A stretch of 64,000 nt of DNA from a virus. This document shows positions 39,650 to 48,585 of the stretch, one piece after another (position 1 is the first letter of the stretch; each line of letters starts with the position of its first letter). The notes under the pieces were generated by a model. That model had not been told where the DNA came from. It ran no database searches and saw only the letters and a list, made by a program, of their open reading frames with translations. A program made the translations under genes and the position numbers. The stretch spans positions 26,838-90,837 of IMG/VR virus record IMGVR_UViG_3300037244_000020. One strand, written 5' to 3'.

Positions 39650-40036
39650 ATGGATACCAGCTCGCTTGTTTTCATCGGACTGGCCGCAGCAGGCGGCGTT
39701 GGCACCGTCGCCTGGTTTTGGATTCGGAGTGTCCAGATGGGCCTCGACAACGCTGCTAAAGTGCTTAACGGCAAAGCCAACCTTACTGACGTAGGGTCGC
39801 TGAAAGACGAACTCCACGCCACGAAGCTGGAGATGAACACCCAACTGAAAGATTTTCAGTTGGAATGTCAGAAGAATTTCGTGTCTAACCCGGCCTTAAT
39901 GCAAGTCATGGCGAGCCTGGATCGCACCATCCAGCAGCTTACTCAGGCCATTCAGCACAACGCTCTAGAGTCTCGTGAAGGGATCAAAGCGATCAACGAT
40001 CGCATCGACAACCTGATGCACAACCGGAATCCATAA
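39650..40036 (+). CDS. Putative holin/antiholin (N-terminal TMD, coiled coil)
   Basis: Single TM segment; directly upstream of the endolysin. Confidence 0.55.
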   Translation: MDTSSLVFIGLAAAGGVGTVAWFWIRSVQMGLDNAAKVLNGKANLTDVGSLKDELHATKLEMNTQLKDFQLECQKNFVSNPALMQVMASLDRTIQQLTQAIQHNALESREGIKAINDRIDNLMHNRNP

Positions 40037-40555
40037 ATGGCAACGATTACAGCGACGCAAGCCGGGGGGCAGAACCGCGTTGCTTTTTTACAGATGATCG
40101 CGGCGAGTGAGATTGGCCCGGCGCTGCTTGCCAAGACCGACGACGGCTATTCGTGCCTCGTAGGCGCCACGCCCGCGCGTCCTCTGACGTTCCCGTCTTA
40201 TGCGGACCACCCGAACGTCTTCAACGCAGCGCTCGATTCGACCGCAGCCGGACGCTACCAACTGCTGTATCACTGGTGGGCGGATCGCACCGTCAACGGC
40301 AAGGTGTACCACGGGTACAAGACGATGCTGGCGCTGAAAGACTTCAGCCCGCTGTCGCAGGATAAGGTCGCGCTGCAGCAGATCCGCGAGTGCAACGCGT
40401 TTCCGTATATCGATGCGGGCGATTTTGAGCACGCGGTCGCGCTGTGCGCGCACATTTGGGCCAGTTTGGCTGGCAGCACGTACGGCCAACATACGAACTC
40501 TCTGGCGCTTCTGCAGGGTTATTACACCGCAGCAGGCGGCACTCTGTCGACCTGA
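40037..40555 (+). CDS. Endolysin, lambda R-type lysozyme/transglycosylase
   Basis: AFLQMIAASE; STAAGRYQLL; DFSPLSQD; WASL. Confidence 0.9.
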   Translation: MATITATQAGGQNRVAFLQMIAASEIGPALLAKTDDGYSCLVGATPARPLTFPSYADHPNVFNAALDSTAAGRYQLLYHWWADRTVNGKVYHGYKTMLALKDFSPLSQDKVALQQIRECNAFPYIDAGDFEHAVALCAHIWASLAGSTYGQHTNSLALLQGYYTAAGGTLST

Positions 40556-40557
40556 CC

Positions 40558-40812
40558 ATGTGGACCTCCGCCAAAAAAGTCATCAAAGACTGCACGACGG
40601 AAAACAACGGGGAATCGTACTGCGCCTTCCGGGTCGCTGCGATGACGGTCATTGCAACGGGTTTCCCGACGTTTTTAGCCTGCACGATCTATACTGTCGT
40701 ACGTAATGGCACGTTCGACATGTGTTCGTTCGGTACAGCGCTTTGCGCGATACTCGGTGGCTGCGGCGTTCTCGCAGGCGGCGTGGCGCTCAAAGCCCGT
40801 ACGGAAATCTGA
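40558..40812 (+). CDS. Putative holin (2 TMDs)
   Basis: Two hydrophobic segments; between the endolysin and spanins. Confidence 0.6.
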   Translation: MWTSAKKVIKDCTTENNGESYCAFRVAAMTVIATGFPTFLACTIYTVVRNGTFDMCSFGTALCAILGGCGVLAGGVALKARTEI

Positions 40813-40823
40813 CAGGAGACTCC

Positions 40824-41354
40824 ATGCCCAATCCTTACGTGATACTGGCGGCCTTTGGCGCGACCATCGGCCTAGCCGTCGCTTCTTTCGGTATCGGCCA
40901 TCACATCGAGTATCTCGAGCTGGTAGCTTACCAGAAGACGCAGGCTGCGGCGGCAGAGAAGCAAGTCGCAGACAACAAGACCGCGCTAGTCAAGCAGCAG
41001 CAGGCGGATCAGGCTGCGATGGACAAGATCAACCAAGACCACGGAGTGCAACTTAATGAGATCACTCAGCGTCGTGATGCTTTGCTCACTGCTAACCGCA
41101 ACCTTACTCAGCGGCTGTGGGTCAGTACCAGTTCCGGTAAGCAGCCTTCTGGCGTGCCCCAAGTTGGAGCCAGTGGACCCGATGATGCTCAATCCGGTCG
41201 AGCAGCACTTTCTTACGGATCTTCAAAGTTTTTCTACGATGAATTCGCCCAAGCCGACGTCGACACAGCAACCATCGCCGCTCTCCAGCAAATAGTCGCG
41301 CATGACCGGGAAGTGTGTAATGGAAGCTTGCCAGGCGCGGCGGCTGCGAAGTAG
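40824..41354 (+). CDS. Rz: Inner-membrane spanin
   Basis: N-terminal TMD plus coiled coil; SD AGGAG; contains an embedded lipoprotein gene. Confidence 0.8.
   Translation: MPNPYVILAAFGATIGLAVASFGIGHHIEYLELVAYQKTQAAAAEKQVADNKTALVKQQQADQAAMDKINQDHGVQLNEITQRRDALLTANRNLTQRLWVSTSSGKQPSGVPQVGASGPDDAQSGRAALSYGSSKFFYDEFAQADVDTATIAALQQIVAHDREVCNGSLPGAAAAK
41056..41295 (+). CDS. Rz1: Outer-membrane spanin lipoprotein embedded in Rz
   Basis: Signal peptide with lipobox LSGC; Pro-rich; +1 frame inside Rz. Confidence 0.78.
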   Translation: MRSLSVVMLCSLLTATLLSGCGSVPVPVSSLLACPKLEPVDPMMLNPVEQHFLTDLQSFSTMNSPKPTSTQQPSPLSSK

Positions 41355-41409
41355 AATAGCGCAACGCCACGATCGCGTACCCCTTCAGAGGTTCTGATAC
41401 GTTGTAGAT

Positions 41410-41432
41410 AAAGCCCGCTCTCGCGGGCTTTA
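41410..41432. terminator. Bidirectional terminator
   Basis: AAAGCCCGC-TCTC-GCGGGCTTT between convergent genes. Confidence 0.7.
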
Positions 41433-41645
41433 TTTTTTCTCCCGATCCTTCAATTCCTCGCGGGCCTCTTCGCACTCACTGCAGTGCTCGATCGCGAAAC
41501 GGATGCCCTCCGAAAGATTCCCCTGCCCTAGCTTTCTGGCTAACCGCGAGTGTGTCGCTGTAAGTCGGGCGTAATACACTTCCATCGCTACATCCGGGTA
41601 CAGCCTTTTTCTTCCTGGCTTTTCCACCCGAATCTCCTCCCCCAT
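41430..41645 (-). CDS. Small ribbon-helix-helix-like DNA-binding protein
   Basis: KPGRKRL...ARKLGQGNLSEGIRFAIE; divergent from the accessory operon. Confidence 0.55.
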   Translation of the reverse strand: MGEEIRVEKPGRKRLYPDVAMEVYYARLTATHSRLARKLGQGNLSEGIRFAIEHCSECEEAREELKDREKK

Positions 41646-41756
41646 TTCGTATGACGCATCGAATTCGTCAGACGCCGATGATCTTACCATGCGTGTTAAG
41701 CGGAGAGACCGCGTAGTCGTACGGCGGAAACAACATCTTACACAAAAGGAACGAAC

Positions 41757-42803
41757 ATGGACGGCACCACATCCTCGCCTGTCACCCACAACGTCTATAC
41801 CACGGGCAGCGGTGACGGGGCAGCAGGGGGCAGCAGCGCTCTGCATTCGATCATCCCCGCCATGATGGCGATGGGCCAGAACCAGAATCAGCACCTCCCG
41901 GCTATCGCCGCTGCGGCGCTTGCTGGCGGAGCAGGTGGCGTCGGTCGAGGCACTCACGCGGGTCTGGGCGCAGCCGCTGGCGGCGCGATCGGCTTCGTGC
42001 TCGGCGCGTTGCTCAACGGCGGCAGCGGCGGTCTGTTCGGGGGTAACAACAACCGGAATGAAGGTAGCCTCGTGACCACGACTGACTTGAACACAGCCCT
42101 GAATCAGCAATCGCAGAATCAAAACACCAACGCGATCCTTCAGCAACTCTCGGCCATCGCCGTTGCGATTCCTGAGAACGAAGGCAAGGTTCAACTGGCT
42201 ATCTCGCAGTCGGAGAACCACATCTCGACGCTGGCACAGCAAAACGCGCTGTACTTGGCGAACAGCACCGCTGCGATCAACCAGAACGTCAGCAGCAACA
42301 CGGCGACCATTATTGCGGCAGCAGGCACCAACAAGGATGCGATCAACGCTGCGTCGAACTTGTCGCAACTGGGCATTTCGAACCTCAGCACGATCGCGCA
42401 GCAACTGGCGGCGGGCCTTGGTCTGCAGGCTGCGAACAACCTGTCTGTCATCCAGACGACGATCCGCGATGATGGCGACAAGACGCGCGCCCTCATGACG
42501 GCGTTCAATGACGCGACGCTGAACCGCATCATCACGACGCAGGCCAACGAGATCATCGAGTTGCGCAACGATCGTACGGTGAGAGGCAACGGTCTGGAGA
42601 TCACGCAAACCGTCAACCAAGTCCAGGCGCAAGCCCAGGCTCAACAACAGCAACAACAGCAGTTCCTGGTTCTGTCGAACATCGCTTCGTCGCTCTCGGG
42701 CCTGACTCAAATTGCTCATGCTACTAACCAGAACGTCATCGCTGGCAATACGGGCGCTGTCACGACTGGTGCGCAGTCTGCCAACCCTGTGAACGTGGCG
42801 TAG
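41757..42803 (+). CDS. Gly-rich, N/Q-rich coiled-coil protein
   Basis: SD AAGGA; glycine-zipper segment, then N/Q-rich heptads, DGDKTRAL, polyQ. Confidence 0.8.
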   Translation: MDGTTSSPVTHNVYTTGSGDGAAGGSSALHSIIPAMMAMGQNQNQHLPAIAAAALAGGAGGVGRGTHAGLGAAAGGAIGFVLGALLNGGSGGLFGGNNNRNEGSLVTTTDLNTALNQQSQNQNTNAILQQLSAIAVAIPENEGKVQLAISQSENHISTLAQQNALYLANSTAAINQNVSSNTATIIAAAGTNKDAINAASNLSQLGISNLSTIAQQLAAGLGLQAANNLSVIQTTIRDDGDKTRALMTAFNDATLNRIITTQANEIIELRNDRTVRGNGLEITQTVNQVQAQAQAQQQQQQQFLVLSNIASSLSGLTQIAHATNQNVIAGNTGAVTTGAQSANPVNVA

Positions 42804-42861
42804 CCGCGAAGTTGTTAGAGGGCCGACTCTAAAGGTCGGCCCTGCTTAAAGGAGGATTACG

Positions 42862-43053
42862 ATGCTAATTTCGCCGATCCAGATGGCGCAGATGCAGTTT
42901 CTGTTGAGCCAACTGCAGATGGTCAGGTTTTTTAGTTTCCTGGCTCCCCAGCGTTTGCAGGTTGCGAAGGCCCGTAACCAGCAAATTATCACGGGGAATC
43001 TCGCGGCGGTGACTACGGGCGCGCAGAACGCCAACCCGATAAACGTGGCGTAA
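42862..43053 (+). CDS. Short paralog of the C-terminus of 41757-42803
   Basis: SD AAGGAGG; ends GNLAAVTTGAQNANPINVA versus GNTGAVTTGAQSANPVNVA. Confidence 0.7.
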   Translation: MLISPIQMAQMQFLLSQLQMVRFFSFLAPQRLQVAKARNQQIITGNLAAVTTGAQNANPINVA

Positions 43054-43091
43054 TCCTGTCCGCTTTTACGCAGGATCAATGAGAGGTCCCC

Positions 43092-43469
43092 GTGCTTCAG
43101 ATACTCCCGTTTTCAGGGATGTCGATGGCTCAAGGTAGCCTGTTGCAGCAGCAATTCGGATTGATCCAGCAGCAGCAGTCGCTGCAGCCTGTGGTCTTTC
43201 AGCCCGTGCAGCAACAACAGTCCAGCAACTTGCCTGTCGTCATCCCACCTCTACCTCCTACGCCGACTCCCGATCTTTCGTACGTGTTCACGCAGACTTC
43301 GGTGTCTCCGGTGTGGACCATTAATCACAACCTAGGGACGTTTCCCTCGGTGACGATCGTAGATCCGTCGGGCAACCAAGTATTCGCTCAGGTTCAGTAC
43401 ATCAACAGCAACCAGGTAGTCGTCACATTCTCGCAACCCTTTGCGGGTTCGGCCTACCTGAGTGCGTAA
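43092..43469 (+). CDS. Q/P-rich protein with C-terminal WTINHNLG beta domain
   Basis: SD GAGG; WTINHNLGTFPSVTIVD..G. Confidence 0.75.
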   Translation: MLQILPFSGMSMAQGSLLQQQFGLIQQQQSLQPVVFQPVQQQQSSNLPVVIPPLPPTPTPDLSYVFTQTSVSPVWTINHNLGTFPSVTIVDPSGNQVFAQVQYINSNQVVVTFSQPFAGSAYLSA

Positions 43470-43481
43470 GGAGAAAGAATT

Positions 43482-43877
43482 ATGGCAATCGATGTCTATG
43501 CTTCATTCGACATGCACCAGAACGTCATCAGCGAGTTCGCAATTCAAAGCGGCGCAGCGTTCCCTGCAACTCCCGTTCTCGGTCAGCATTTCATCTTGAC
43601 ACCGGGTAACGTCGAGTCATACTGGAACGGTACCGTCTGGGTTGCGCTCGGCAACGGCCCGTATAAGTTCGCTCAGACCATCGGCAACGGCGTTCTGCTG
43701 ACTTTCGTGGTGAACCACAACCTGGGAACGCAAGATACGATAGAGTCGCTGTATAGCGTCTCTGCGCCGTTTGCGGAACAGATCGCTGTAGTTCAGCATA
43801 CGGACGCGAACAACACGACGTTCATTTTCACTATCCCGCCTGCGTTGAACTCTGTGCGGGCGGTCATCCACGCCTAA
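43482..43877 (+). CDS. Protein with VNHNLG beta domain
   Basis: SD AAGGAG; IGNG..TFVVNHNLGT.D. Confidence 0.75.
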   Translation: MAIDVYASFDMHQNVISEFAIQSGAAFPATPVLGQHFILTPGNVESYWNGTVWVALGNGPYKFAQTIGNGVLLTFVVNHNLGTQDTIESLYSVSAPFAEQIAVVQHTDANNTTFIFTIPPALNSVRAVIHA

Positions 43878-43893
43878 TAGGCAGGAGGGCATC

Positions 43894-44085
43894 ATGTTCG
43901 GTCCGTTCGGGTTCCCAGGAATTTTCCCAGGGTTTGGTTTCGGCGGCATTCTGCCCTCCTACATACCGTACTTGGTAGCGAACGGATTCGGCAAGTGCAA
44001 CTGTTCGAATCCTCTGCAGAACCTGCCGTCGTTCATTTTCCAGCCGCTCATCACGCCATTTCCGTTCACAAGGCGGTTCTGGTAA
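43894..44085 (+). CDS. Small Phe/Gly/Pro-rich protein
   Basis: SD AGGAGG; MFGPFGFPGIFPGFGFGG; followed by a terminator. Confidence 0.65.
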   Translation: MFGPFGFPGIFPGFGFGGILPSYIPYLVANGFGKCNCSNPLQNLPSFIFQPLITPFPFTRRFW

Positions 44086-44087
44086 AG

Positions 44088-44117
44088 AAAGCCCCGCTCA
44101 AAAAGCGGGGCTTTTTC
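44088..44117. terminator. Bidirectional terminator
   Basis: AAAGCCCCGCT-CAAAA-AGCGGGGCTTTTT. Confidence 0.8.
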
Positions 44118-44281
44118 CTTCCAGCATCACAGCGTACTCGACTGCCGCCCCGCTCATGCGCGCCCGGCTGGCGACTGCGAAATTGGCGTCGGACACCGAA
44201 GGGTAAGACCGAGGCAACCGCTGCCAGCCAGTAGGCTCTTTAGCGTACCCGCGCCGGATGCGGTACCAGATGCAGTAGACC

Positions 44282-44485
44282 TCAGAATTCATGAGGTGCC
44301 CACAGCGCTCGGTTCTGTGCGCTTCGCCTCTGCAGTTCCAGCCCCTCTTTCCTAAGACAGTCGACCTCACGCTGCATGGAGTCGATACTGGCGAGAAGTA
44401 CCGCGTCAGCGATCTCACGCTGCTTTCGGCGCTCCCTACGCCGTCGCTGCAGTTTCTCGGTATCGTCTTTGACGTCTTTCATCAC
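44282..44485 (-). CDS. Small coiled-coil protein
   Basis: Coupled ORF. Confidence 0.5.
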   Translation of the reverse strand: MMKDVKDDTEKLQRRRRERRKQREIADAVLLASIDSMQREVDCLRKEGLELQRRSAQNRALWAPHEF

Positions 44486-44649
44486 TTCTTCCTCTTAACA
44501 CGTTCAGGTAGATTTTTGACCGGCACGCCCTTTTGTGCAGCGACAAGTTTCTTCGCTGCGGTCTGCGACAGTCCGGTCTTCTTGGCAATTGCAGGACTGC
44601 GCGCCGCCGCCTGAAAAAGCCTGTTCTGGGCTTTGCTGACCGCAGGCAT
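44482..44649 (-). CDS. Small basic protein (55 aa)
   Basis: Read manually: MPAVSKAQNRLFQAAA...; start overlaps the upstream stop. Confidence 0.55.
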   Translation of the reverse strand: MPAVSKAQNRLFQAAARSPAIAKKTGLSQTAAKKLVAAQKGVPVKNLPERVKRKK

Positions 44650-45479
44650 TACACCGCCCTCTGTATCTCATCGACGAATTTCAGCGTCTCGCGCCGCAAG
44701 TGGTCGGCGAGGCGTGGGTCGATGATGCTCTTGATGGTGGCGGCTTCAATTCCGAGCGTTGCAGCGGTCTCGAAGTCGAGAGCCGACTTGGCAGACGTCA
44801 GGATCGGGTCCACGCCTGCCCCGGCCACAGGGCAACCGCCCGGGCCGTCGCACAGCGCGAGGACAGCTTGCCAGTCTTTGCTGCGTTTCGTGCAGGTATC
44901 GATCAGCGTGTACTCGTCCGGGTCCAGCAAGTGCGCCTCAAACCGTGCGTGCTCCTCGACGATCTCAGCCCAGAACTTGACAACTTCCTGCCGGTCATAT
45001 TCCGACTGGCCGCCAGCGAGTTGCGTAAGGCGCGTCGTCCACCGCTCCGCCTCATGCTGCGTGTGCTCGAAGAACAGGGGCCAGACGAGGCTGCGTAACG
45101 CGCCGCTGGTCTGTGCTGCGCCCTGCTTTGCCTTGTAGTCGATGAACGGCTTGATGGCGTCAGTGACCATTGTACAGAACGCCTTCAGACCGTCCAGCTT
45201 GGGCGGCCCGCTGGCGTCGATCTTCTTGAGTAGGTCGGAGAACGTCTTATTGAACTGCTGCGCTTGGGTGCGTTCGGCCTGCGCGACTTCGGGGGGCATC
45301 AGCAGCACGAAGAATAGCGCGTGTTCCGCCATGATGTCGACGGCGAAGCGCGCATCGGCCCATGCGTGCAAGCACGGATCGGCCTGGTCGAGCGGAGGGA
45401 GTGTCACGATCTTTTCGAACTCTGAGTCAGGGGAAACGATACCGTCCCTGTCGTATAGGATGAACTGCGCTGCTGCCAT
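44649..45479 (-). CDS. DUF2935-like tandem four-helix (putative di-metal) protein
   Basis: IMAEHALFF..EHTQHEA; FWAEIVEEHARF..LLDPDE; LADHLRRE. Confidence 0.75.
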   Translation of the reverse strand: MAAAQFILYDRDGIVSPDSEFEKIVTLPPLDQADPCLHAWADARFAVDIMAEHALFFVLLMPPEVAQAERTQAQQFNKTFSDLLKKIDASGPPKLDGLKAFCTMVTDAIKPFIDYKAKQGAAQTSGALRSLVWPLFFEHTQHEAERWTTRLTQLAGGQSEYDRQEVVKFWAEIVEEHARFEAHLLDPDEYTLIDTCTKRSKDWQAVLALCDGPGGCPVAGAGVDPILTSAKSALDFETAATLGIEAATIKSIIDPRLADHLRRETLKFVDEIQRAV

Positions 45480-45492
45480 GATTGGTCTCCGG

Positions 45493-46185
45493 TTACTTCA
45501 CTTTGCCTGCGAGGAACTCGCAGTAGGTAGCATACAACTCCCGGAACTTTACCTTGGCGATGTCCGAATCAAGGAATTGCTGGAAGCCTGGCGCCCCCAT
45601 CTTCACGTGCAGGCCGATCTCTACCATCTGCTCGATAGACAGGGTTGCCATCGCGATCTTGAGGATGGGCGCCCACATCTTGACGTCGGGCAGCATCGAC
45701 CCTTTTGCAGCCGGGGCGGGGGTTGGCGCTTCTACGGGTGTGGCTTGTGGGAGGGCGGGTGCGGTCATGTCGGGTTCCGGTTGGGGCGAGGGCAACGGCG
45801 CAGGCGTTTCCTGAACGACAGGCGCCGGGGCGGGAGAAGGCTCCTGCTGCAGCGCTTGGGCAGATTCAGGGACCGCCACAGGTGCAGCCGCTTCAAGAGT
45901 AGCGGGCGGGGCAACAGCAGGGGCCGGGACCGCAGCGTTGGTCATAACTTGCTGGACCATCGAAGGCGTCATGGGCAGCGATGGCGAATTCTGCTGTAGA
46001 GCCGCCAATTGGTCAGCGAGCGACACATTGGGATTTGCCGACTGCATCGCCTTAAGCGCTGCGATCTGGGCCTGCAGCGCCTCGATCTGCTGGTTCTGCG
46101 AGAGTGGTGCGCTGCTCAATTTCAACCTCTTTAGGTATCTGCGGATCATCCATTCGGCGATCCAGGATTTCACTTTCGTCAGCAT
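45493..46185 (-). CDS. Pro/Ala/Gln-rich protein with helical C-terminal domain
   Basis: Low-complexity linker; upstream of the DUF2935-like gene. Confidence 0.7.
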   Translation of the reverse strand: MLTKVKSWIAEWMIRRYLKRLKLSSAPLSQNQQIEALQAQIAALKAMQSANPNVSLADQLAALQQNSPSLPMTPSMVQQVMTNAAVPAPAVAPPATLEAAAPVAVPESAQALQQEPSPAPAPVVQETPAPLPSPQPEPDMTAPALPQATPVEAPTPAPAAKGSMLPDVKMWAPILKIAMATLSIEQMVEIGLHVKMGAPGFQQFLDSDIAKVKFRELYATYCEFLAGKVK

Positions 46186-46616
46186 GGCGGCAGCACGTGA
46201 AAGCAGGTAACCCCTTCCGCGCGGTACATGCTGACTACAGGCATCTCGTTATCATAGGCGCACAGGACGCGCTCGCTTGGGATTGTTCCGTCGTGCAGCC
46301 AGCGCATCTTTATGTCAGCAGCTTCACGCGTGTCGCCAGCCGGGCGCATCAGCAGCCTGTTGTAGTAAATGTTGTGCTTGAATAACCAGTCTTCGGTATG
46401 GCTGCGGACCGAGTCGCTGCGCGCGGACACGATCCACATATCGCGACTGGCTGTGAAGTGGTCGCAGAATACCGATATGACTTCTTCGTAAGGCGCGTCA
46501 TCGACGCACGCTGCGGTATAGGCGTCCCAGTCGATCGGCTGTTCCCGCAGGAGATGGGCGCGGTGCGCCGTGAGTGCCAGCGTGTCATCAAGGTCAAATA
46601 TCACTAGGTCCCGCAT
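46179..46616 (-). CDS. HAD phosphatase (PNK 3'-phosphatase-like)
   Basis: IFDLDDTLA; VSAR; LLMRP..D...D.K. Confidence 0.85.
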   Translation of the reverse strand: MRDLVIFDLDDTLALTAHRAHLLREQPIDWDAYTAACVDDAPYEEVISVFCDHFTASRDMWIVSARSDSVRSHTEDWLFKHNIYYNRLLMRPAGDTREAADIKMRWLHDGTIPSERVLCAYDNEMPVVSMYRAEGVTCFHVLPPC

Positions 46617-46948
46617 GCCGCGCTCCTTGGTCGAAGGCGTCGGCTGCCTGACCGCACCTGCTGGTTGCCCATATGACGCCGAGGATGAATCCGACGCCAG
46701 CGCAGACTAGAAGACACACAGCCAGAAGCAATGCAGCGTTCGAGTATTCGATCACGTTCACCCTCGACAGGATGGAAAAAGGGCCGCACGTGAAGGCCGG
46801 CCTAAAGCCACATCAACCGGGGGATTGATGCAGGACTCCATCCTATATCGTCGGACGAAGCAAAGTCGTAACGAAGTGTATCAACGCAGCCACCAGACGA
46901 GCGAGGCTACCACAGCACCGATTAGAGCGCTGCGGAGGTGGGAGAGGA

Positions 46949-47653
46949 TCAGCCGGGTGCGGTAATGCATGATGAGGCTCCCAAGCGATGTCGCTTCAAC
47001 GCTGCGACCGCGACGGGTACGATCGGTTCGATCAAACTCAGCATTGCCTCAGCATAGACCCGAATCTCGTATTGCGAGTGCTCGTGGAGACGTAGTTTCA
47101 GGAAGTGCGCGAGATTGTGCAGGTCGACCGTGCAGAAGCAGTGTGAGTAGGTCGCGACCGGCAGAACAGTACGTGCCAGTTCGCGGGGGACGCCGTCAGC
47201 GATCATGTCCCGGTAGATAGTAAAACTGTCTCGGTTGAGGTTTGCCATCATGTCGCGCCAACCTTCTGCGAACGGGTGCTGCTCTTCCGTGCGCATCTGC
47301 TTATTTGAAGCGTGCTGTGTCGTGATCTGCTCGACGGCGGGTACGTAAAATTCTTCCGGCAACTCTGCGTAACGTGCGCTAACCTCGTTGAACGACCATG
47401 TACGGTGCCTATGCCACTGCCGGAACACGAAGATCGGCGCCTTCACGTCGAACGTGAACGTCACGGATTCCAGCGGACTGGTGTGGCCGTTCTTGATCAG
47501 GTAGTCGATCAGCTTTGCGTCGCTGCCAGTGTCTTCGCCAGCGCGCCACGCAGCGTTGTAGCTGACGCGTGCGGCGCGCGCGATGGATAGATCATTGCCC
47601 ATGTGGTCTACGAGGCGCACACTGCCGTGGTCTAGTACTTTGATTTCGTTCAT
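46949..47653 (-). CDS. thyX: Flavin-dependent thymidylate synthase
   Basis: HTSPLE; RQWHRHRTWSFNEVSARY; RELARTVLP; HSQYEIR. Confidence 0.95.
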   Translation of the reverse strand: MNEIKVLDHGSVRLVDHMGNDLSIARAARVSYNAAWRAGEDTGSDAKLIDYLIKNGHTSPLESVTFTFDVKAPIFVFRQWHRHRTWSFNEVSARYAELPEEFYVPAVEQITTQHASNKQMRTEEQHPFAEGWRDMMANLNRDSFTIYRDMIADGVPRELARTVLPVATYSHCFCTVDLHNLAHFLKLRLHEHSQYEIRVYAEAMLSLIEPIVPVAVAALKRHRLGASSCITAPG

Positions 47654-48585
47654 TTGGATTCCTTTGGGTTAAGTTTTTCGAGTTCGCGGACTTTTAAAAT
47701 AGCTTCGTAAGCCGCTTCCGGGGTATCGAAAGTCCCTAAATACTTAAATTTTCCATCTAATGTAGTTTGGGCTTTCCACCTCCTTGGCGAGGATGCTTTT
47801 GTTACTCCGCAGTAGCCGCTAGTATTAGACGAGCGCGCCCGGCCTAGCCAGTAGTTCCCTATTTTTGCCTTCGTCTCAGCCTTAAGTTTCTTTCCTTTGT
47901 TTATCTTGGACAGCTTCTCCCGAGTCTCCTGGCTGCGCACCTTGCCTGCATTTTTGCCCTTCAAGGAAGCAGACATTTTCCGCTTGGTCTCGTCACTTAG
48001 AGGTACGCCACTTCGTTTACCCTTCTGCGCCGCTGACATCTTTGCGCGGGCGGCGGAGCTACGCTTTTTGCCCTTATTCCCTGTTGCGATGTTCGCTTTG
48101 TGCTCGTCCGTGAGTTTTCTCCCGGTTCGGATACCCCGCTGGGCTTCGCTCATTTTCGCTCGTGTTTCAGCACTTCTTTTCTGACCCTTATGCGACTCCG
48201 CGCGCCTCGCTTTAGTCTCCTCGCTCTGCACACTGCCCAGCATTCTCTGGCGGCACTTCTCTCCGAACTCCGGGCCGTGCTTCGTGCCCAACGCGCTCCC
48301 CGCTGTCATGTAGGAGTTGTACAGTTTCGACCTGCTGCGCGCGTCGATCTGCTCCTGCTCTCTGGCTATCAGGTCTTCTTTGGCGCAAAACGCGATCTTA
48401 GAGAAAACTAAGGCGTCTTCGCCGTACTTGTTGAACGCCCGCTGCAGACTTAGGCAGTGGTGTGCCCCCTGCCTCAAATGCCTGCGGTGCACCCTCCACC
48501 GGGCTTTAAATGATACGGCGCTTCCGACGTACTGCTTGCCGGAAGGAGACGTAATGGTGTAGATCCCGCAGTCAAAGTTGAGCAC
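47650..48585 (-). CDS. GIY-YIG homing endonuclease with NUMOD3 repeats and AP2-like C-terminus
   Basis: CGIYTITSPSGKQYVGSA; S.ET+.K.S repeats; NTSGYCGV...YLGTFDTPEAA. Confidence 0.9.
   Translation of the reverse strand: MLNFDCGIYTITSPSGKQYVGSAVSFKARWRVHRRHLRQGAHHCLSLQRAFNKYGEDALVFSKIAFCAKEDLIAREQEQIDARSRSKLYNSYMTAGSALGTKHGPEFGEKCRQRMLGSVQSEETKARRAESHKGQKRSAETRAKMSEAQRGIRTGRKLTDEHKANIATGNKGKKRSSAARAKMSAAQKGKRSGVPLSDETKRKMSASLKGKNAGKVRSQETREKLSKINKGKKLKAETKAKIGNYWLGRARSSNTSGYCGVTKASSPRRWKAQTTLDGKFKYLGTFDTPEAAYEAILKVRELEKLNPKESK

What the first reader, a model, noticed from the sequence alone, without database searches (positions are those of the whole stretch)
41430..46185. Uncharacterised accessory island: N/Q-rich coiled-coil, NHNLG-domain, FG-rich, Pro-rich and DUF2935-like proteins
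Seen: after the lysis genes, a terminator-bounded operon with strong SDs encodes a 348-aa glycine-zipper plus N/Q-rich protein, its mini-paralog, two NHNLG beta-domain proteins (one with a Q/P-rich leader) and an F/G/P-rich peptide. It is preceded by a divergent RHH-like gene and faced by a small basic protein, a His/Glu di-metal-like DUF2935 protein and a Pro-rich protein. None belong to the standard siphovirus set. Inference: the compositions recall self-assembling coat, amyloid or fibre proteins, so this may be a phage-encoded assembly (virion coat or appendage, protective matrix, or condensate) with a metal-dependent modifying enzyme. Functional linkage of the two convergent halves is unproven.
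Basis: inference. Interest (0 to 1): 0.72.

Follow-up and report, generated by a model that had tools for sequence, protein, structure and literature searches.

The report
Self-regulated T5.077-type phage accessory cassette
The "island" is two unrelated gene sets facing each other. One is a real, widespread, repressor-controlled phage cassette of unknown function, a divergent relative of three untested genes of the model phage T5; the other is ordinary end-of-operon cargo.

Summary
They do not form one system.

**Plus strand (41430-44115).** This is a terminator-bounded cassette:
- a ribbon-helix-helix-like repressor gene, transcribed divergently;
- a 348-aa protein (A) with a glycine zipper and a long coiled coil;
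- a 63-aa copy of A's C-terminal end (A');
- two small proteins with a tail-fibre-type beta-sandwich domain (B1, B2);
- a Phe/Gly/Pro-rich peptide (FG).

These parts co-occur in related phage contigs. The A family has at least 838 clusters at 50% identity, is almost entirely phage-borne, and matches no Pfam, PHROG or PDB entry. About 25 loci carry a small divergent DNA-binding gene next to A, of three different folds. A profile of A hits phage T5 gene T5.077. The commonest gene after A belongs to the T5.078 family. The cassette is therefore a new, self-regulated branch of the uncharacterised T5.077-079 cassette, which this scan has already noted several times in T5-like phages.

**Minus strand.** The Pro-rich, DUF2935 and basic proteins end the converging nucleotide-metabolism operon. 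DUF2935 occurs in only one relative.

**Function.** Unknown. My best guess is a membrane-anchored rod with co-assembling partners, not a core virion part.

The parts
41406..41435 (.). Hairpin terminator separating the spanin genes from the cassette; it also lies at the 3' end of the RHH gene
   Evidence: Folds at -19.8 kcal/mol, z -4.95, followed by a U-run on the + strand.
41430..41645 (-). Ribbon-helix-helix-like DNA-binding protein, about 65-71 aa, transcribed divergently from A. The ORF is open up to 41690.
   Evidence: Homologues lie divergently next to A in 13 non-redundant loci. In the ESM Atlas, all ten best named hits belong to RHH-type families, scores 0.89-0.93. Pfam gives no match.
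41646..41756 (.). Divergent control region with three operator-like sites TCGT-NN-GRCG at 41647, 41665 and 41717
   Evidence: Three of the window's 11 matches fall within 80 bp; Poisson P about 3e-4 after correction for the number of windows. The blocks ATTCGTC(A/G)GAC and GTCGTACGACGG are conserved in relatives, and the second is a perfect 14-16-bp palindrome in L078 and L069.
41757..42803 (+). A: 348-aa protein with a disordered N-terminus, a glycine-zipper hydrophobic segment (residues 67-86), a GGLFGG motif, one long helix (108-275), a second helix (284-324) with a poly-Q stretch, and a conserved 28-aa tail containing GNTGA
   Evidence: AlphaFold2 pLDDT above 90 for residues 140-270. 156 homologues; 838 clusters at 50% identity in the profile search. 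The A1 profile hits T5.077 at 51 bits, and T5.077 alone hits 17 family members.
42819..42843 (+). Stable hairpin between A and A' with no U-tract; possibly an attenuator or RNA-stability element
   Evidence: -19.7 kcal/mol, z -4.06.
42862..43053 (+). A': stand-alone paralogue of roughly the last 55 residues of A (the Q-rich helix plus the tail)
   Evidence: The same arrangement occurs in L041/L074/L078, L043, L058, L061, L062 and L075.
43092..43469 (+). B1: Q/P-rich leader followed by a C-terminal HNLG beta-sandwich domain
   Evidence: PHROG families 30556, 34633 and 10272 at E 7e-20 to 3e-16, all of unknown function. Matched by the HNLG HMM built here. Homologues follow A in L042, L058 and L064.
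43482..43877 (+). B2: small all-beta protein of tail-fibre type, with an N-terminal beta region and a C-terminal HNLG domain
   Evidence: AlphaFold2 model at pLDDT 73. BFVD matches at E 6e-5 to 1e-3 to proteins named tail fibre, Mtd_N, Stf-repeat and collagen-like. PDB matches at Z 5-6.4 to phage neck and tailspike C-terminal beta-sandwiches. HNLG ORFs follow A or A' in 13 non-redundant loci.
43894..44085 (+). FG: 63-aa Phe/Pro/Gly-rich peptide with a conserved LPSYIPYLVANG-G-(K/R)-C-x-C core
   Evidence: Homologues sit at the same position in L041/L074/L078, L062 and L043. It occupies the same position as T5.079 in the T5 cassette, but no homology was shown.
44087..44115 (.). Terminator shared by the two converging transcription units
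   Evidence: -21.1 kcal/mol on the + strand and -20.7 on the - strand.
44282..44482 (-). 66-aa Arg/Glu-rich coiled-coil ORF; its ATG overlaps the stop codon of the 55-aa gene. Not part of the cassette.
   Evidence: Read directly from the sequence. No homologue found.
44482..44649 (-). 55-aa Ala/Lys-rich basic protein. Not part of the cassette.
   Evidence: phrog_16759 at E 3e-10; the motif also matches the N-termini of 'virion structural protein' PHROGs. Present in L062 only.
44649..45479 (-). DUF2935 protein (two domains), a relative of a solved 'conserved metalloprotein'. A sporadic insertion, not part of the cassette.
   Evidence: Pfam PF11155 at 92 bits. PDB 3D19 at E 1.5e-17 over nearly the full length. 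Found only in L034 among relatives; no match in phage or viral collections.
45493..46185 (-). Pro/Ala-rich protein: Q-rich N-terminal helix, P/A linker, and a conserved C-terminal helical domain of about 55 aa. Possibly a remote relative of the T5.078-type partner.
   Evidence: Kept in all close relatives, converging on the cassette (L034, L041, L062, L078). hhalign against one partner subfamily gives P 6e-4 and probability 29%, which is weak.

Best explanation
The finding joins two transcription units that merely converge on one terminator.

(1) 41430-44115 is an autonomous accessory cassette. A ribbon-helix-helix-type repressor is transcribed divergently. It probably binds three palindromic sites in the 110-bp control region and limits expression of an operon headed by protein A.

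A is a member of a large, almost exclusively phage-borne family that includes phage T5 gene T5.077. It has a glycine-zipper hydrophobic segment, about 250 residues of poorly charged Ala/Gln/Asn/Thr-rich helix that most likely forms an oligomeric rod, and, in this branch, an invariant 28-residue Gly/Asn/Thr/Val-rich tail.

I infer that the glycine zipper anchors the rod in the membrane of the infected cell, and that the small proteins encoded after A co-assemble with it. These proteins are A' (a free copy of A's C-terminal end), B1 and B2 (carrying tail-fibre-type beta-sandwich domains that look like sugar-binding heads) and the aromatic FG peptide. Together they would form an envelope-associated accessory structure. 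Candidate roles are exclusion of competing phages, envelope remodelling, or binding of receptor-bearing debris. It is not a core virion part.

(2) 44282-46185 is the tail end of the converging nucleotide-metabolism operon (ThyX, HAD phosphatase). The DUF2935 metalloprotein is a sporadic passenger there.

Shown: the gene content, co-occurrence, regulator replacement, operator conservation and T5 homology. Inferred: membrane anchoring, co-assembly and the biological role.
For: Module reality:
- An RHH-like gene lies divergently next to A in 13 non-redundant loci.
- A 4-Cys zinc-ribbon gene takes the same place in 11 loci, and a KorA-type HTH gene in 1 (Pfam E 1e-5).
- Operator-like palindromes cluster in the control region and are conserved in relatives.
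- A' follows A in 7 loci, HNLG ORFs in 13, and FG-type peptides in 5.

Family size and range:
- 838 clusters at E<=1e-3.
- Only 2 small contigs among 185,579 bacterial and archaeal genomes match the tail motif.

T5 link:
- The A1 profile hits T5.077 at 51 bits over the N-terminal helix, the PVNVF motif, the glycine zipper and two thirds of the rod.
- T5.077 alone hits 17 family members, best E 3e-12.
- The commonest gene after A, seen in 17 loci, is phrog_7894, which is the T5.078 family.
- The T5 record annotates its own promoter P12 and a bidirectional terminator around T5.077-079, inside the tRNA region.

Accessory nature: the surroundings differ from phage to phage, including lysis genes, helicase, thymidylate synthase, PhoH, head genes and an integrase.

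Rod: AlphaFold2 predicts one helix over residues 108-275 with pLDDT above 90.

Hydrophobic segment: the best 19-residue window scores Kyte-Doolittle 1.85 in the window protein; the family median is 1.52.

Separateness of the minus-strand genes.
Against: - Topology is unresolved. The N-terminal region is on average acidic (-2.4) and an Arg usually follows the zipper. The positive-inside rule therefore gives no clear answer, and the hydrophobicity is borderline.
- None of A', B1, B2 or FG has a signal peptide or lipobox. They could not join a periplasmic rod.
- The rod's composition (11% charged, no Cys or Trp) resembles secreted filaments and phage fibres.
- Fibre- or tailspike-like genes follow A in several independent lineages, which fits a virion-fibre reading.
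- An HMM of A's Q-rich helix does not detect the partners' N-termini, so co-assembly rests on gene order alone.
- No expression data are available.
- The RHH fold rests on language-model features and sequence pattern only.
Confidence: 0.45

Rival explanations
1. Accessory virion fibre. A is a trimeric coiled-coil stalk that docks on the virion through its variable N-terminus. Its tail acts as a foldon-like trimerisation or docking motif. The downstream genes are exchangeable tips (HNLG or collagen-like heads, depolymerases) or fibre chaperones.
For: - The rod composition is fibre-like.
- B2 resembles tail-fibre proteins.
- A is followed by collagen-like fibre proteins in L005, a pre-neck-appendage-like protein in L009, an SGNH esterase in L006 and a tail-protein-like gene in L017.
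- A small gene directly after a fibre gene is the usual arrangement for fibre chaperones.
- Some homologues carry an N-terminal beta-rich extension.
Against: - The T5 homologue lies in the early tRNA region on its own promoter. From my own knowledge, it is not among the known T5 virion proteins.
- KLER1-1 carries it between helicase and primase genes.
- A dedicated repressor and a hydrophobic glycine zipper are unusual for fibres.
- No chain in the PDB, which now holds many whole-virion structures, matches the family profile.
- The most conserved part is the C-terminus, conserved across hosts of different phyla. This is the opposite of what receptor-binding fibres show.
Confidence: 0.2
2. Lysis-related envelope machine. 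A acts as a spanin-like or fusion-like protein, or as a large holin or antiholin, using a Gly-rich hydrophobic segment plus two helices.
For: - The cassette sits directly after the lysis genes here, and near endolysins in L021, L047, L059, L068, L070 and At2.
- The layout is a hydrophobic segment, a long helix, a hinge and a shorter helix.
- All identifiable hosts are Gram-negative.
Against: - This phage already has holin candidates, an endolysin and an Rz/Rz1 pair with a lipobox.
- There is no lipoprotein partner.
- The rod is poorly charged, unlike spanins.
- Many cassettes are far from any lysis genes.
Confidence: 0.1
3. Amyloid-like or self-templating switch. The 28-residue tail shared by A and A' drives cross-beta assembly, which controls insertion of the glycine zipper, by analogy with Bab/Agp or HET-S.
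For: - The motif is about 25-28 aa, rich in G/N/Q/V/T, free of Lys and Leu, sits at the C-terminus, and is repeated in the adjacent gene.
- This matches the published description of bacterial amyloid signalling motifs (10.1101/2020.01.06.895854; 10.1101/2024.11.07.622273).
- There is an N-terminal hydrophobic segment, as in those systems.
Against: - A' carries no sensor domain.
- A 250-residue rod separates the tail from the zipper.
- Most family members have no A'.
- Some family members, and T5.077, lack the tail altogether.
- No amyloid predictor or assay was run.
Confidence: 0.08
4. One reading: one island in which the DUF2935 metalloenzyme modifies the self-assembling proteins.
For: The genes are adjacent. 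A palindrome resembling the RHH operators lies upstream of the minus-strand operon at 46845-46885, which might allow co-regulation.
Against: - DUF2935 is present in only 1 of the close relatives and in none of the other A loci.
- It lies in an operon with ThyX and a HAD phosphatase.
- The palindrome count across the whole window is at chance level: 11 found against 9 expected.
Confidence: 0.04

Closest known systems
Phage T5 genes T5.077-T5.078-T5.079 (AY543070 38064-39671), annotated as hypothetical proteins
   Same: - T5.077 shares with A the N-terminal helix, the PVNVF motif, the glycine zipper, a GGFGG motif and two thirds of the rod.
- T5.078 belongs to the same PHROG (7894) as the commonest gene after A.
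- A tiny Cys/Pro/Phe-rich peptide comes last in both.
- The T5 unit has its own promoter and a bidirectional terminator, and faces the opposite way to its neighbours.
   Different: - T5.077 has a Cys-Cys-Cys motif and no poly-Q stretch or GNTGA tail.
- T5 has no divergent small regulator, no mini-paralogue and no HNLG proteins.
- In the window the T5.078-type partner is missing, or at best represented by the converging Pro-rich gene.
- FG and T5.079 show no detectable homology.
Phage P22 immI region (mnt / arc-ant)
   Same: A ribbon-helix-helix repressor is transcribed divergently from an accessory operon embedded in the late region next to host-recognition genes, with palindromic operators between them. 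This comparison rests on my own knowledge of P22.
   Different: The cargo is an antirepressor, unrelated to A. No homology was found between these regulators and Arc or Mnt.
Phage 'morons' (lambda bor/lom, HK97 gp15, T5 llp)
   Same: A transcription unit bounded by its own promoter and terminators, at an operon end, variable among relatives, and probably acting at the envelope.
   Different: The unit has several genes, carries its own repressor, and occurs mainly in virulent phages. No tyrosine integrase (Pfam PF00589) was found in this genome; other recombinase families were not searched. It is almost absent from bacterial genomes.
Coiled-coil accessory fibres (T4 fibritin, phi29 head fibre gp8.5)
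   Same: A long oligomeric helix with a short C-terminal motif that could act as a folding nucleus. Small beta-sandwich proteins are encoded nearby.
   Different: No sequence or fold match. A has a hydrophobic glycine zipper, a dedicated repressor, and non-structural genome positions.
DUF2935 / PDB 3D19 'conserved metalloprotein' of Bacillus cereus
   Same: The 276-aa protein matches over nearly its whole length.
   Different: It is carried by a phage, and no other copy was found in the phage collections searched. Its role and metal ligands were not examined.

Membership tests
T5.077 / A superfamily | Significant sequence similarity in both search directions | tested here: met
   The A1 profile hits T5.077 at 51.1 bits (E 3e-17 against 4 sequences) over HMM positions 9-217. 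T5.077 by phmmer hits 17 of 250 family proteins, best E 2.7e-12. However, A alone gives no PHROG match, phrog_8119 included.
T5.077-079-type cassette | A T5.078-type partner (phrog_7894) directly downstream of the rod gene | tested here: not met
   Met in 17 other A loci. In the window the next genes are A', B1, B2 and FG. The converging Pro-rich protein is only a weak candidate (hhalign P 6e-4, probability 29%).
T5.077-079-type cassette | The Cys-Cys-Cys motif in the rod protein, as reported in earlier notes of this scan | tested here: not met
   Present in T5.077. Absent from the window's A. Among the 250 family proteins held, only one has a CCC triplet, and at a different position.
Ribbon-helix-helix regulators (Arc/MetJ clan) | A match to an RHH family model | tested here: inconclusive
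   No Pfam match even at E 5 and no PDB sequence match. In the ESM Atlas, all ten best named clusters are RHH-type (NikA-like, RHH_1, RHH_3, TacA1, DUF6290), scores 0.89-0.93. The invariant pattern Y..R......R..R..G.G....G.R fits a strand-helix-turn-helix layout.
Ribbon-helix-helix regulators (Arc/MetJ clan) | Repeated or palindromic operators at the regulated promoter | tested here: met
   Three sites within 80 bp; the blocks are conserved in four relatives. Binding itself was not tested.
i-spanin (Rz type) | A cognate outer-membrane lipoprotein (o-spanin) embedded in or adjacent to the gene | tested here: not met
   No lipobox in A', B1, B2, FG or the ORFs embedded in A. The phage's own Rz/Rz1 pair lies at 40722-41354 and 41056-41295.
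i-spanin (Rz type) | An N-terminal transmembrane anchor with a highly charged periplasmic coiled coil | tested here: inconclusive
   A hydrophobic segment is present (Kyte-Doolittle 1.85) but its orientation is unclear. The rod has only about 11% charged residues.
Amyloid signalling pairs (Bell/BASS, Bab/Agp, HET-S) | A motif of about 25 aa rich in G/N/Q, shared by the termini of adjacent gene products | tested here: met
   The A tail and the A' tail are 68% identical. The composition fits the published description.
Amyloid signalling pairs (Bell/BASS, Bab/Agp, HET-S) | The partner carries a sensor or NLR-type domain, and the motif forms amyloid | tested here: not met
   A' is 63 aa with no further domain. 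Fibril formation cannot be tested with these tools.
Phage tail-fibre / tailspike distal beta-sandwich modules (B1, B2) | Structural similarity to fibre-protein domains | tested here: met
   BFVD: 17 matches at E<=1e-3, several named tail fibre, 26-29% identity over 69-96 columns. PDB VIA-align Z 5-6.4, which is within the range common for small beta-sandwiches. Foldseek against PDB gives only E 0.35.
DUF2935 (PF11155) | A Pfam score above the gathering cut-off | tested here: met
   92.3 bits against 24.4, in two stretches. PDB 3D19 at E 1.5e-17. Metal ligands were not checked.

The most novel reading that the evidence does not exclude
The invariant Gly/Asn/Thr/Val-rich tail that A shares with its free-standing copy A' is a self-templating (cross-beta) assembly switch. 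When triggered, it drives the glycine zipper of A into a membrane. This would be a phage-encoded counterpart of the Bab/Agp and HET-S amyloid-controlled membrane effectors, kept silent by its own repressor.
Probability: 0.08. Interest if true: 0.85.

Novelty: new variant of a known kind. Interest (0 to 1): 0.55.

Why it matters
A protein family with hundreds of clusters in soil, peat, groundwater and lake phages has no assigned function. This work ties it to three never-characterised genes of the model phage T5, so the question can now be tested at the bench in E. coli.

The branch described here adds features that constrain any mechanism:
- a dedicated repressor that has been replaced by three unrelated DNA-binding folds;
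- a free copy of the protein's own C-terminal end;
- tail-fibre-type heads.

Whatever the cassette does, whether exclusion, envelope remodelling or an accessory appendage, it is a common and overlooked part of how virulent phages of Gram-negative bacteria deal with their hosts.

Tried and rejected
- **DNA and protein searches of cultured phages.** No DNA match. A gave only two weak protein hits, At2 and KLER1-1. DUF2935 gave none.
- **Family libraries.** Pfam, NCBIfam and PADLOC gave nothing for A, A', B1, B2, FG, the Pro-rich protein or the RHH-like protein.
- **Structure searches for A.** PDB by sequence and Foldseek on the A model gave nothing useful.
- **First related-locus scan.** It was swamped by poly-Q patterns. 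A hand-made degenerate pattern for the tail worked instead.
- **Fused forms of A.** The only hit was one terminase-annotated 699-aa protein, probably a gene-calling fusion.
- **Idea that partner N-termini mimic A's Q-rich helix.** Rejected: an HMM of that helix hits only other A proteins.
- **Pro-rich protein as a T5.078-type partner.** Only hhalign P 6e-4 and no PHROG hit. Left as a weak lead.
- **Single-protein scans of viral contigs** for DUF2935 and B2 found almost nothing.
- **RNA data.** No RNA holder was listed for this DNA.
- **Literature.** No paper mentions KLER1-1 or T5.077/T5p075.
- **Rejected script.** It was redone using coordinates.

Full report
**Source.** The window is the last 64 kb of a complete 90,837-bp viral record with direct terminal repeats, taken from a peat metagenome. 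No tyrosine integrase (Pfam PF00589) was found in it; other recombinase families were not searched. Upstream of the finding lie a 926-aa tail fibre gene, a fibre-associated gene, holin-like genes, a lysozyme gene and an Rz/Rz1 pair. Downstream, on the minus strand, lie genes for a HAD/PNKP-type phosphatase, ThyX, a GIY-YIG endonuclease and an SbcC-like protein.

**Observation.**
- A' is a true copy of the last ~55 residues of A.
- The DUF2935 assignment is solid: Pfam 92 bits, and PDB 3D19 at E 1.5e-17.
- The RHH-like gene is shorter than the open frame suggests. Its start is probably 41645 or 41627. That leaves a control region of about 110 bp.
- A coupled 66-aa ORF at 44282-44482 was overlooked.

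**The A family.**
- A has 156 homologues in a word-indexed search. None carries a name or a Pfam domain.
- A profile search of 1.84 billion representatives finds 838 clusters at E<=1e-3 and 218 at E<=1e-30, all 150-430 aa long.
- The conserved parts are a variable N-terminus, often with an 'L..HE' helix and a (P)VN(V/I)F motif; a glycine zipper followed by GGLFGG; a long helix; an RDDGDKTRAL...NEIIELR block; a poly-Q stretch; and a nearly invariant tail ATN-N-(V/L)I-(A/V)-GNTGA-TG-Q-ANP-NV.
- AlphaFold2 predicts one helix over residues 108-275 (pLDDT above 90) and a second over 284-324. The N-terminus and the tail are disordered.
- No PDB fold or sequence match exists. The ESM Atlas returns only viral 'hypothetical' clusters.
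- The region after the zipper is 200-326 aa long (median 252). Its composition is A16, Q13, N11, L9, T9%, with about 11% charged residues and almost no Cys or Trp.
- The hydrophobic segment is borderline for a membrane span and its flanking charges are uninformative, so topology is open.
- A degenerate DNA pattern for the tail found 16 viral contigs and 53 metagenome contigs. Among 185,579 bacterial and archaeal genomes it found only 2 small contigs. One of these is a collinear fragment binned with a Granulicella MAG.

- A small gene lies divergently upstream of A in about 25 loci. It is RHH-like in 13, a 4-Cys zinc-ribbon protein with a basic tail in 11, and a KorA/TrfB-type HTH protein in 1. 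Replacement of one DNA-binding fold by another at a fixed position points to a dedicated regulator.
- The control region holds three TCGT-NN-GRCG sites within 80 bp. Relatives conserve the blocks, including a perfect 14-16-bp palindrome about 35 bp before the A start codon.
- A' follows A in 7 non-redundant loci, an HNLG-domain ORF in 13, and an FG-type peptide in 5.
- Close relatives show a minimal set of RHH | A, A', FG (L041/L074/L078). The HNLG genes are optional additions (L062 has one, the window and L058 have two).
- Other branches carry different genes after A. In 17 loci it is an 85-240-aa protein with a Q-rich N-terminus and a conserved C-terminal '...EGK.LA..L.KFARF' domain. In 6 loci it is a ~50-aa 'YFDDDD' protein. 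In 3 loci it is an 80-aa protein followed by an endolysin.

**The minus-strand genes.** The Pro-rich gene is kept in all close relatives and converges on the cassette. DUF2935 is present only in L034. In L062 the Pro-rich gene directly abuts the basic-protein gene, and L041/L078 have neither DUF2935 nor the basic-protein gene. DUF2935 has no other phage homologue in the collections searched. These genes belong to the converging operon that also holds the HAD phosphatase and ThyX genes. The proposed 'metal-dependent modifying enzyme' is therefore not part of the module. Two weak hints of a link remain:
- The Pro-rich protein has the same three-part layout as the common partner family, with a weak profile match (P 6e-4).
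- An operator-like palindrome lies upstream of the minus-strand operon at 46845-46885.

**B1 and B2.** The HNLG domain matches PHROGs of unknown function, where it forms the C-terminal end of larger phage proteins. The B2 model is all-beta.
- In BFVD it matches proteins named tail fibre, Mtd_N-containing, Stf-repeat, collagen-like and pectate-lyase (E 6e-5 to 1e-3).
- In the PDB it matches phage neck and tailspike C-terminal beta-sandwiches (Z 5-6.4).
- The PDB scores are modest and typical of small beta-sandwiches. 'Tail-fibre-type head, possibly sugar-binding' is as far as this evidence goes.

**The T5 link.** Earlier notes of this scan on T5-like phages led me to T5.077-079. I tested the link myself.
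- The A profile hits T5.077 at 51 bits across the N-terminal helix, PVNVF motif, glycine zipper and two thirds of the rod.
- T5.077 alone hits 17 A-family proteins.
- T5.078 is phrog_7894, the same family as the common partner after A.
- T5.079 is a tiny Cys/Pro/Phe-rich peptide in the position of FG.
- The T5 record annotates promoter P12 and an efficient bidirectional terminator around the trio, inside the tRNA region and on the opposite strand to its neighbours.
- T5.077 has a CCC motif and lacks the poly-Q stretch and the tail. The window's A has the reverse.
- The window therefore carries a distinct, large branch of the same superfamily, with added features: its own repressor, A' and the HNLG heads.
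- The earlier notes say the T5 trio is dispensable in the laboratory. I did not test this.

**Mechanism.**
- Well supported: this is an autonomous, repressor-controlled accessory cassette whose main product is an oligomeric helical rod with a hydrophobic glycine zipper.
- Against a core virion role: the position of the T5 homologue, the variety of genome contexts, the dedicated regulators and the near-absence from bacterial genomes.
- I therefore favour a membrane-anchored rod acting in the infected cell, with the small proteins co-assembling on it.
- Evidence against this reading is real. The partners have no export signals, the rod composition is fibre-like, and fibre- or tailspike-like genes follow A in several lineages.
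- The virion-fibre reading is the main rival. A lysis role and an amyloid-like switch are minor rivals.

**Verdict.** The feature is a new variant of an annotated but uncharacterised cassette type that this scan had already met in T5-like phages. What this window adds is the large environmental branch, its regulators and its partner repertoire.

Noticed in passing
window 46845-46885: Two adjacent palindromes, TTCGTTACGA and TCGTCCGACGA, lie between thyX and the next minus-strand genes. They resemble the operator-like sites between the RHH gene and A, so the repressor might also control the converging operon. The motif count over the whole window is at chance level.
   Followed up: partly
window 46594-46761 (-): A 55-aa ORF with one clear hydrophobic span overlaps the start of the HAD/PNKP phosphatase gene. 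It may be an unannotated small membrane protein heading the minus-strand operon.
   Followed up: no
window 44482-44649 (-); L019:8814-10058: The N-terminal motif of the 55-aa basic protein (MP.VSK...) also forms the N-terminus of much larger proteins, in PHROGs 25121 and 22033 ('virion structural protein') and in a 414-aa protein downstream of A in L019.
   Followed up: partly
window 39650-41354: The lysis region appears to hold a 128-aa protein with an N-terminal hydrophobic segment and a coiled coil, a lysozyme, a second multi-span small protein within 40444-40812, and an Rz gene with an embedded Rz1 lipoprotein (lipobox LSGC).
   Followed up: no
L078 (CAZPZL010000281.1): A 4.1-kb contig binned with an uncultured Granulicella MAG is collinear with window 40900-46185: Rz/Rz1, RHH, A, A', FG and the converging Pro-rich gene. 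This is a weak hint that the host is an acidobacterium.
   Followed up: partly
L043:2170-2654: This relative encodes two consecutive Gly/Phe/Tyr-rich peptides (88 and 66 aa) after its HNLG gene. The second is 76% G/F/Y/P/W.
   Followed up: no
L066 and L072, about 150 nt after A: A 37-aa ORF starting M-N-S-C-C-S and containing C-C-N-C recalls the 'MCC...' peptide T5.079.
   Followed up: no
L020, L037, L045, L043, L034 (HNLG genes): The leaders of these HNLG proteins carry repeats of the type N-x-G-G-S-I-x-G-D-N-N together with His/Asp-rich runs. Several A homologues have His-rich N-termini. This suggests metal or pH sensitivity.
   Followed up: no
A-family alignment A1, N-termini: Long homologues have a conserved internal Met 5-12 residues before the (V/I)-N-(V/I)-F motif, exactly where the short homologues, including the window's A, begin. 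This raises the possibility of two translation starts.
   Followed up: no
window 47650-48585 (-): A 311-aa GIY-YIG-type endonuclease gene with Lys-rich repeats sits between thyX and the SbcC-like gene. It is probably a homing endonuclease.
   Followed up: no
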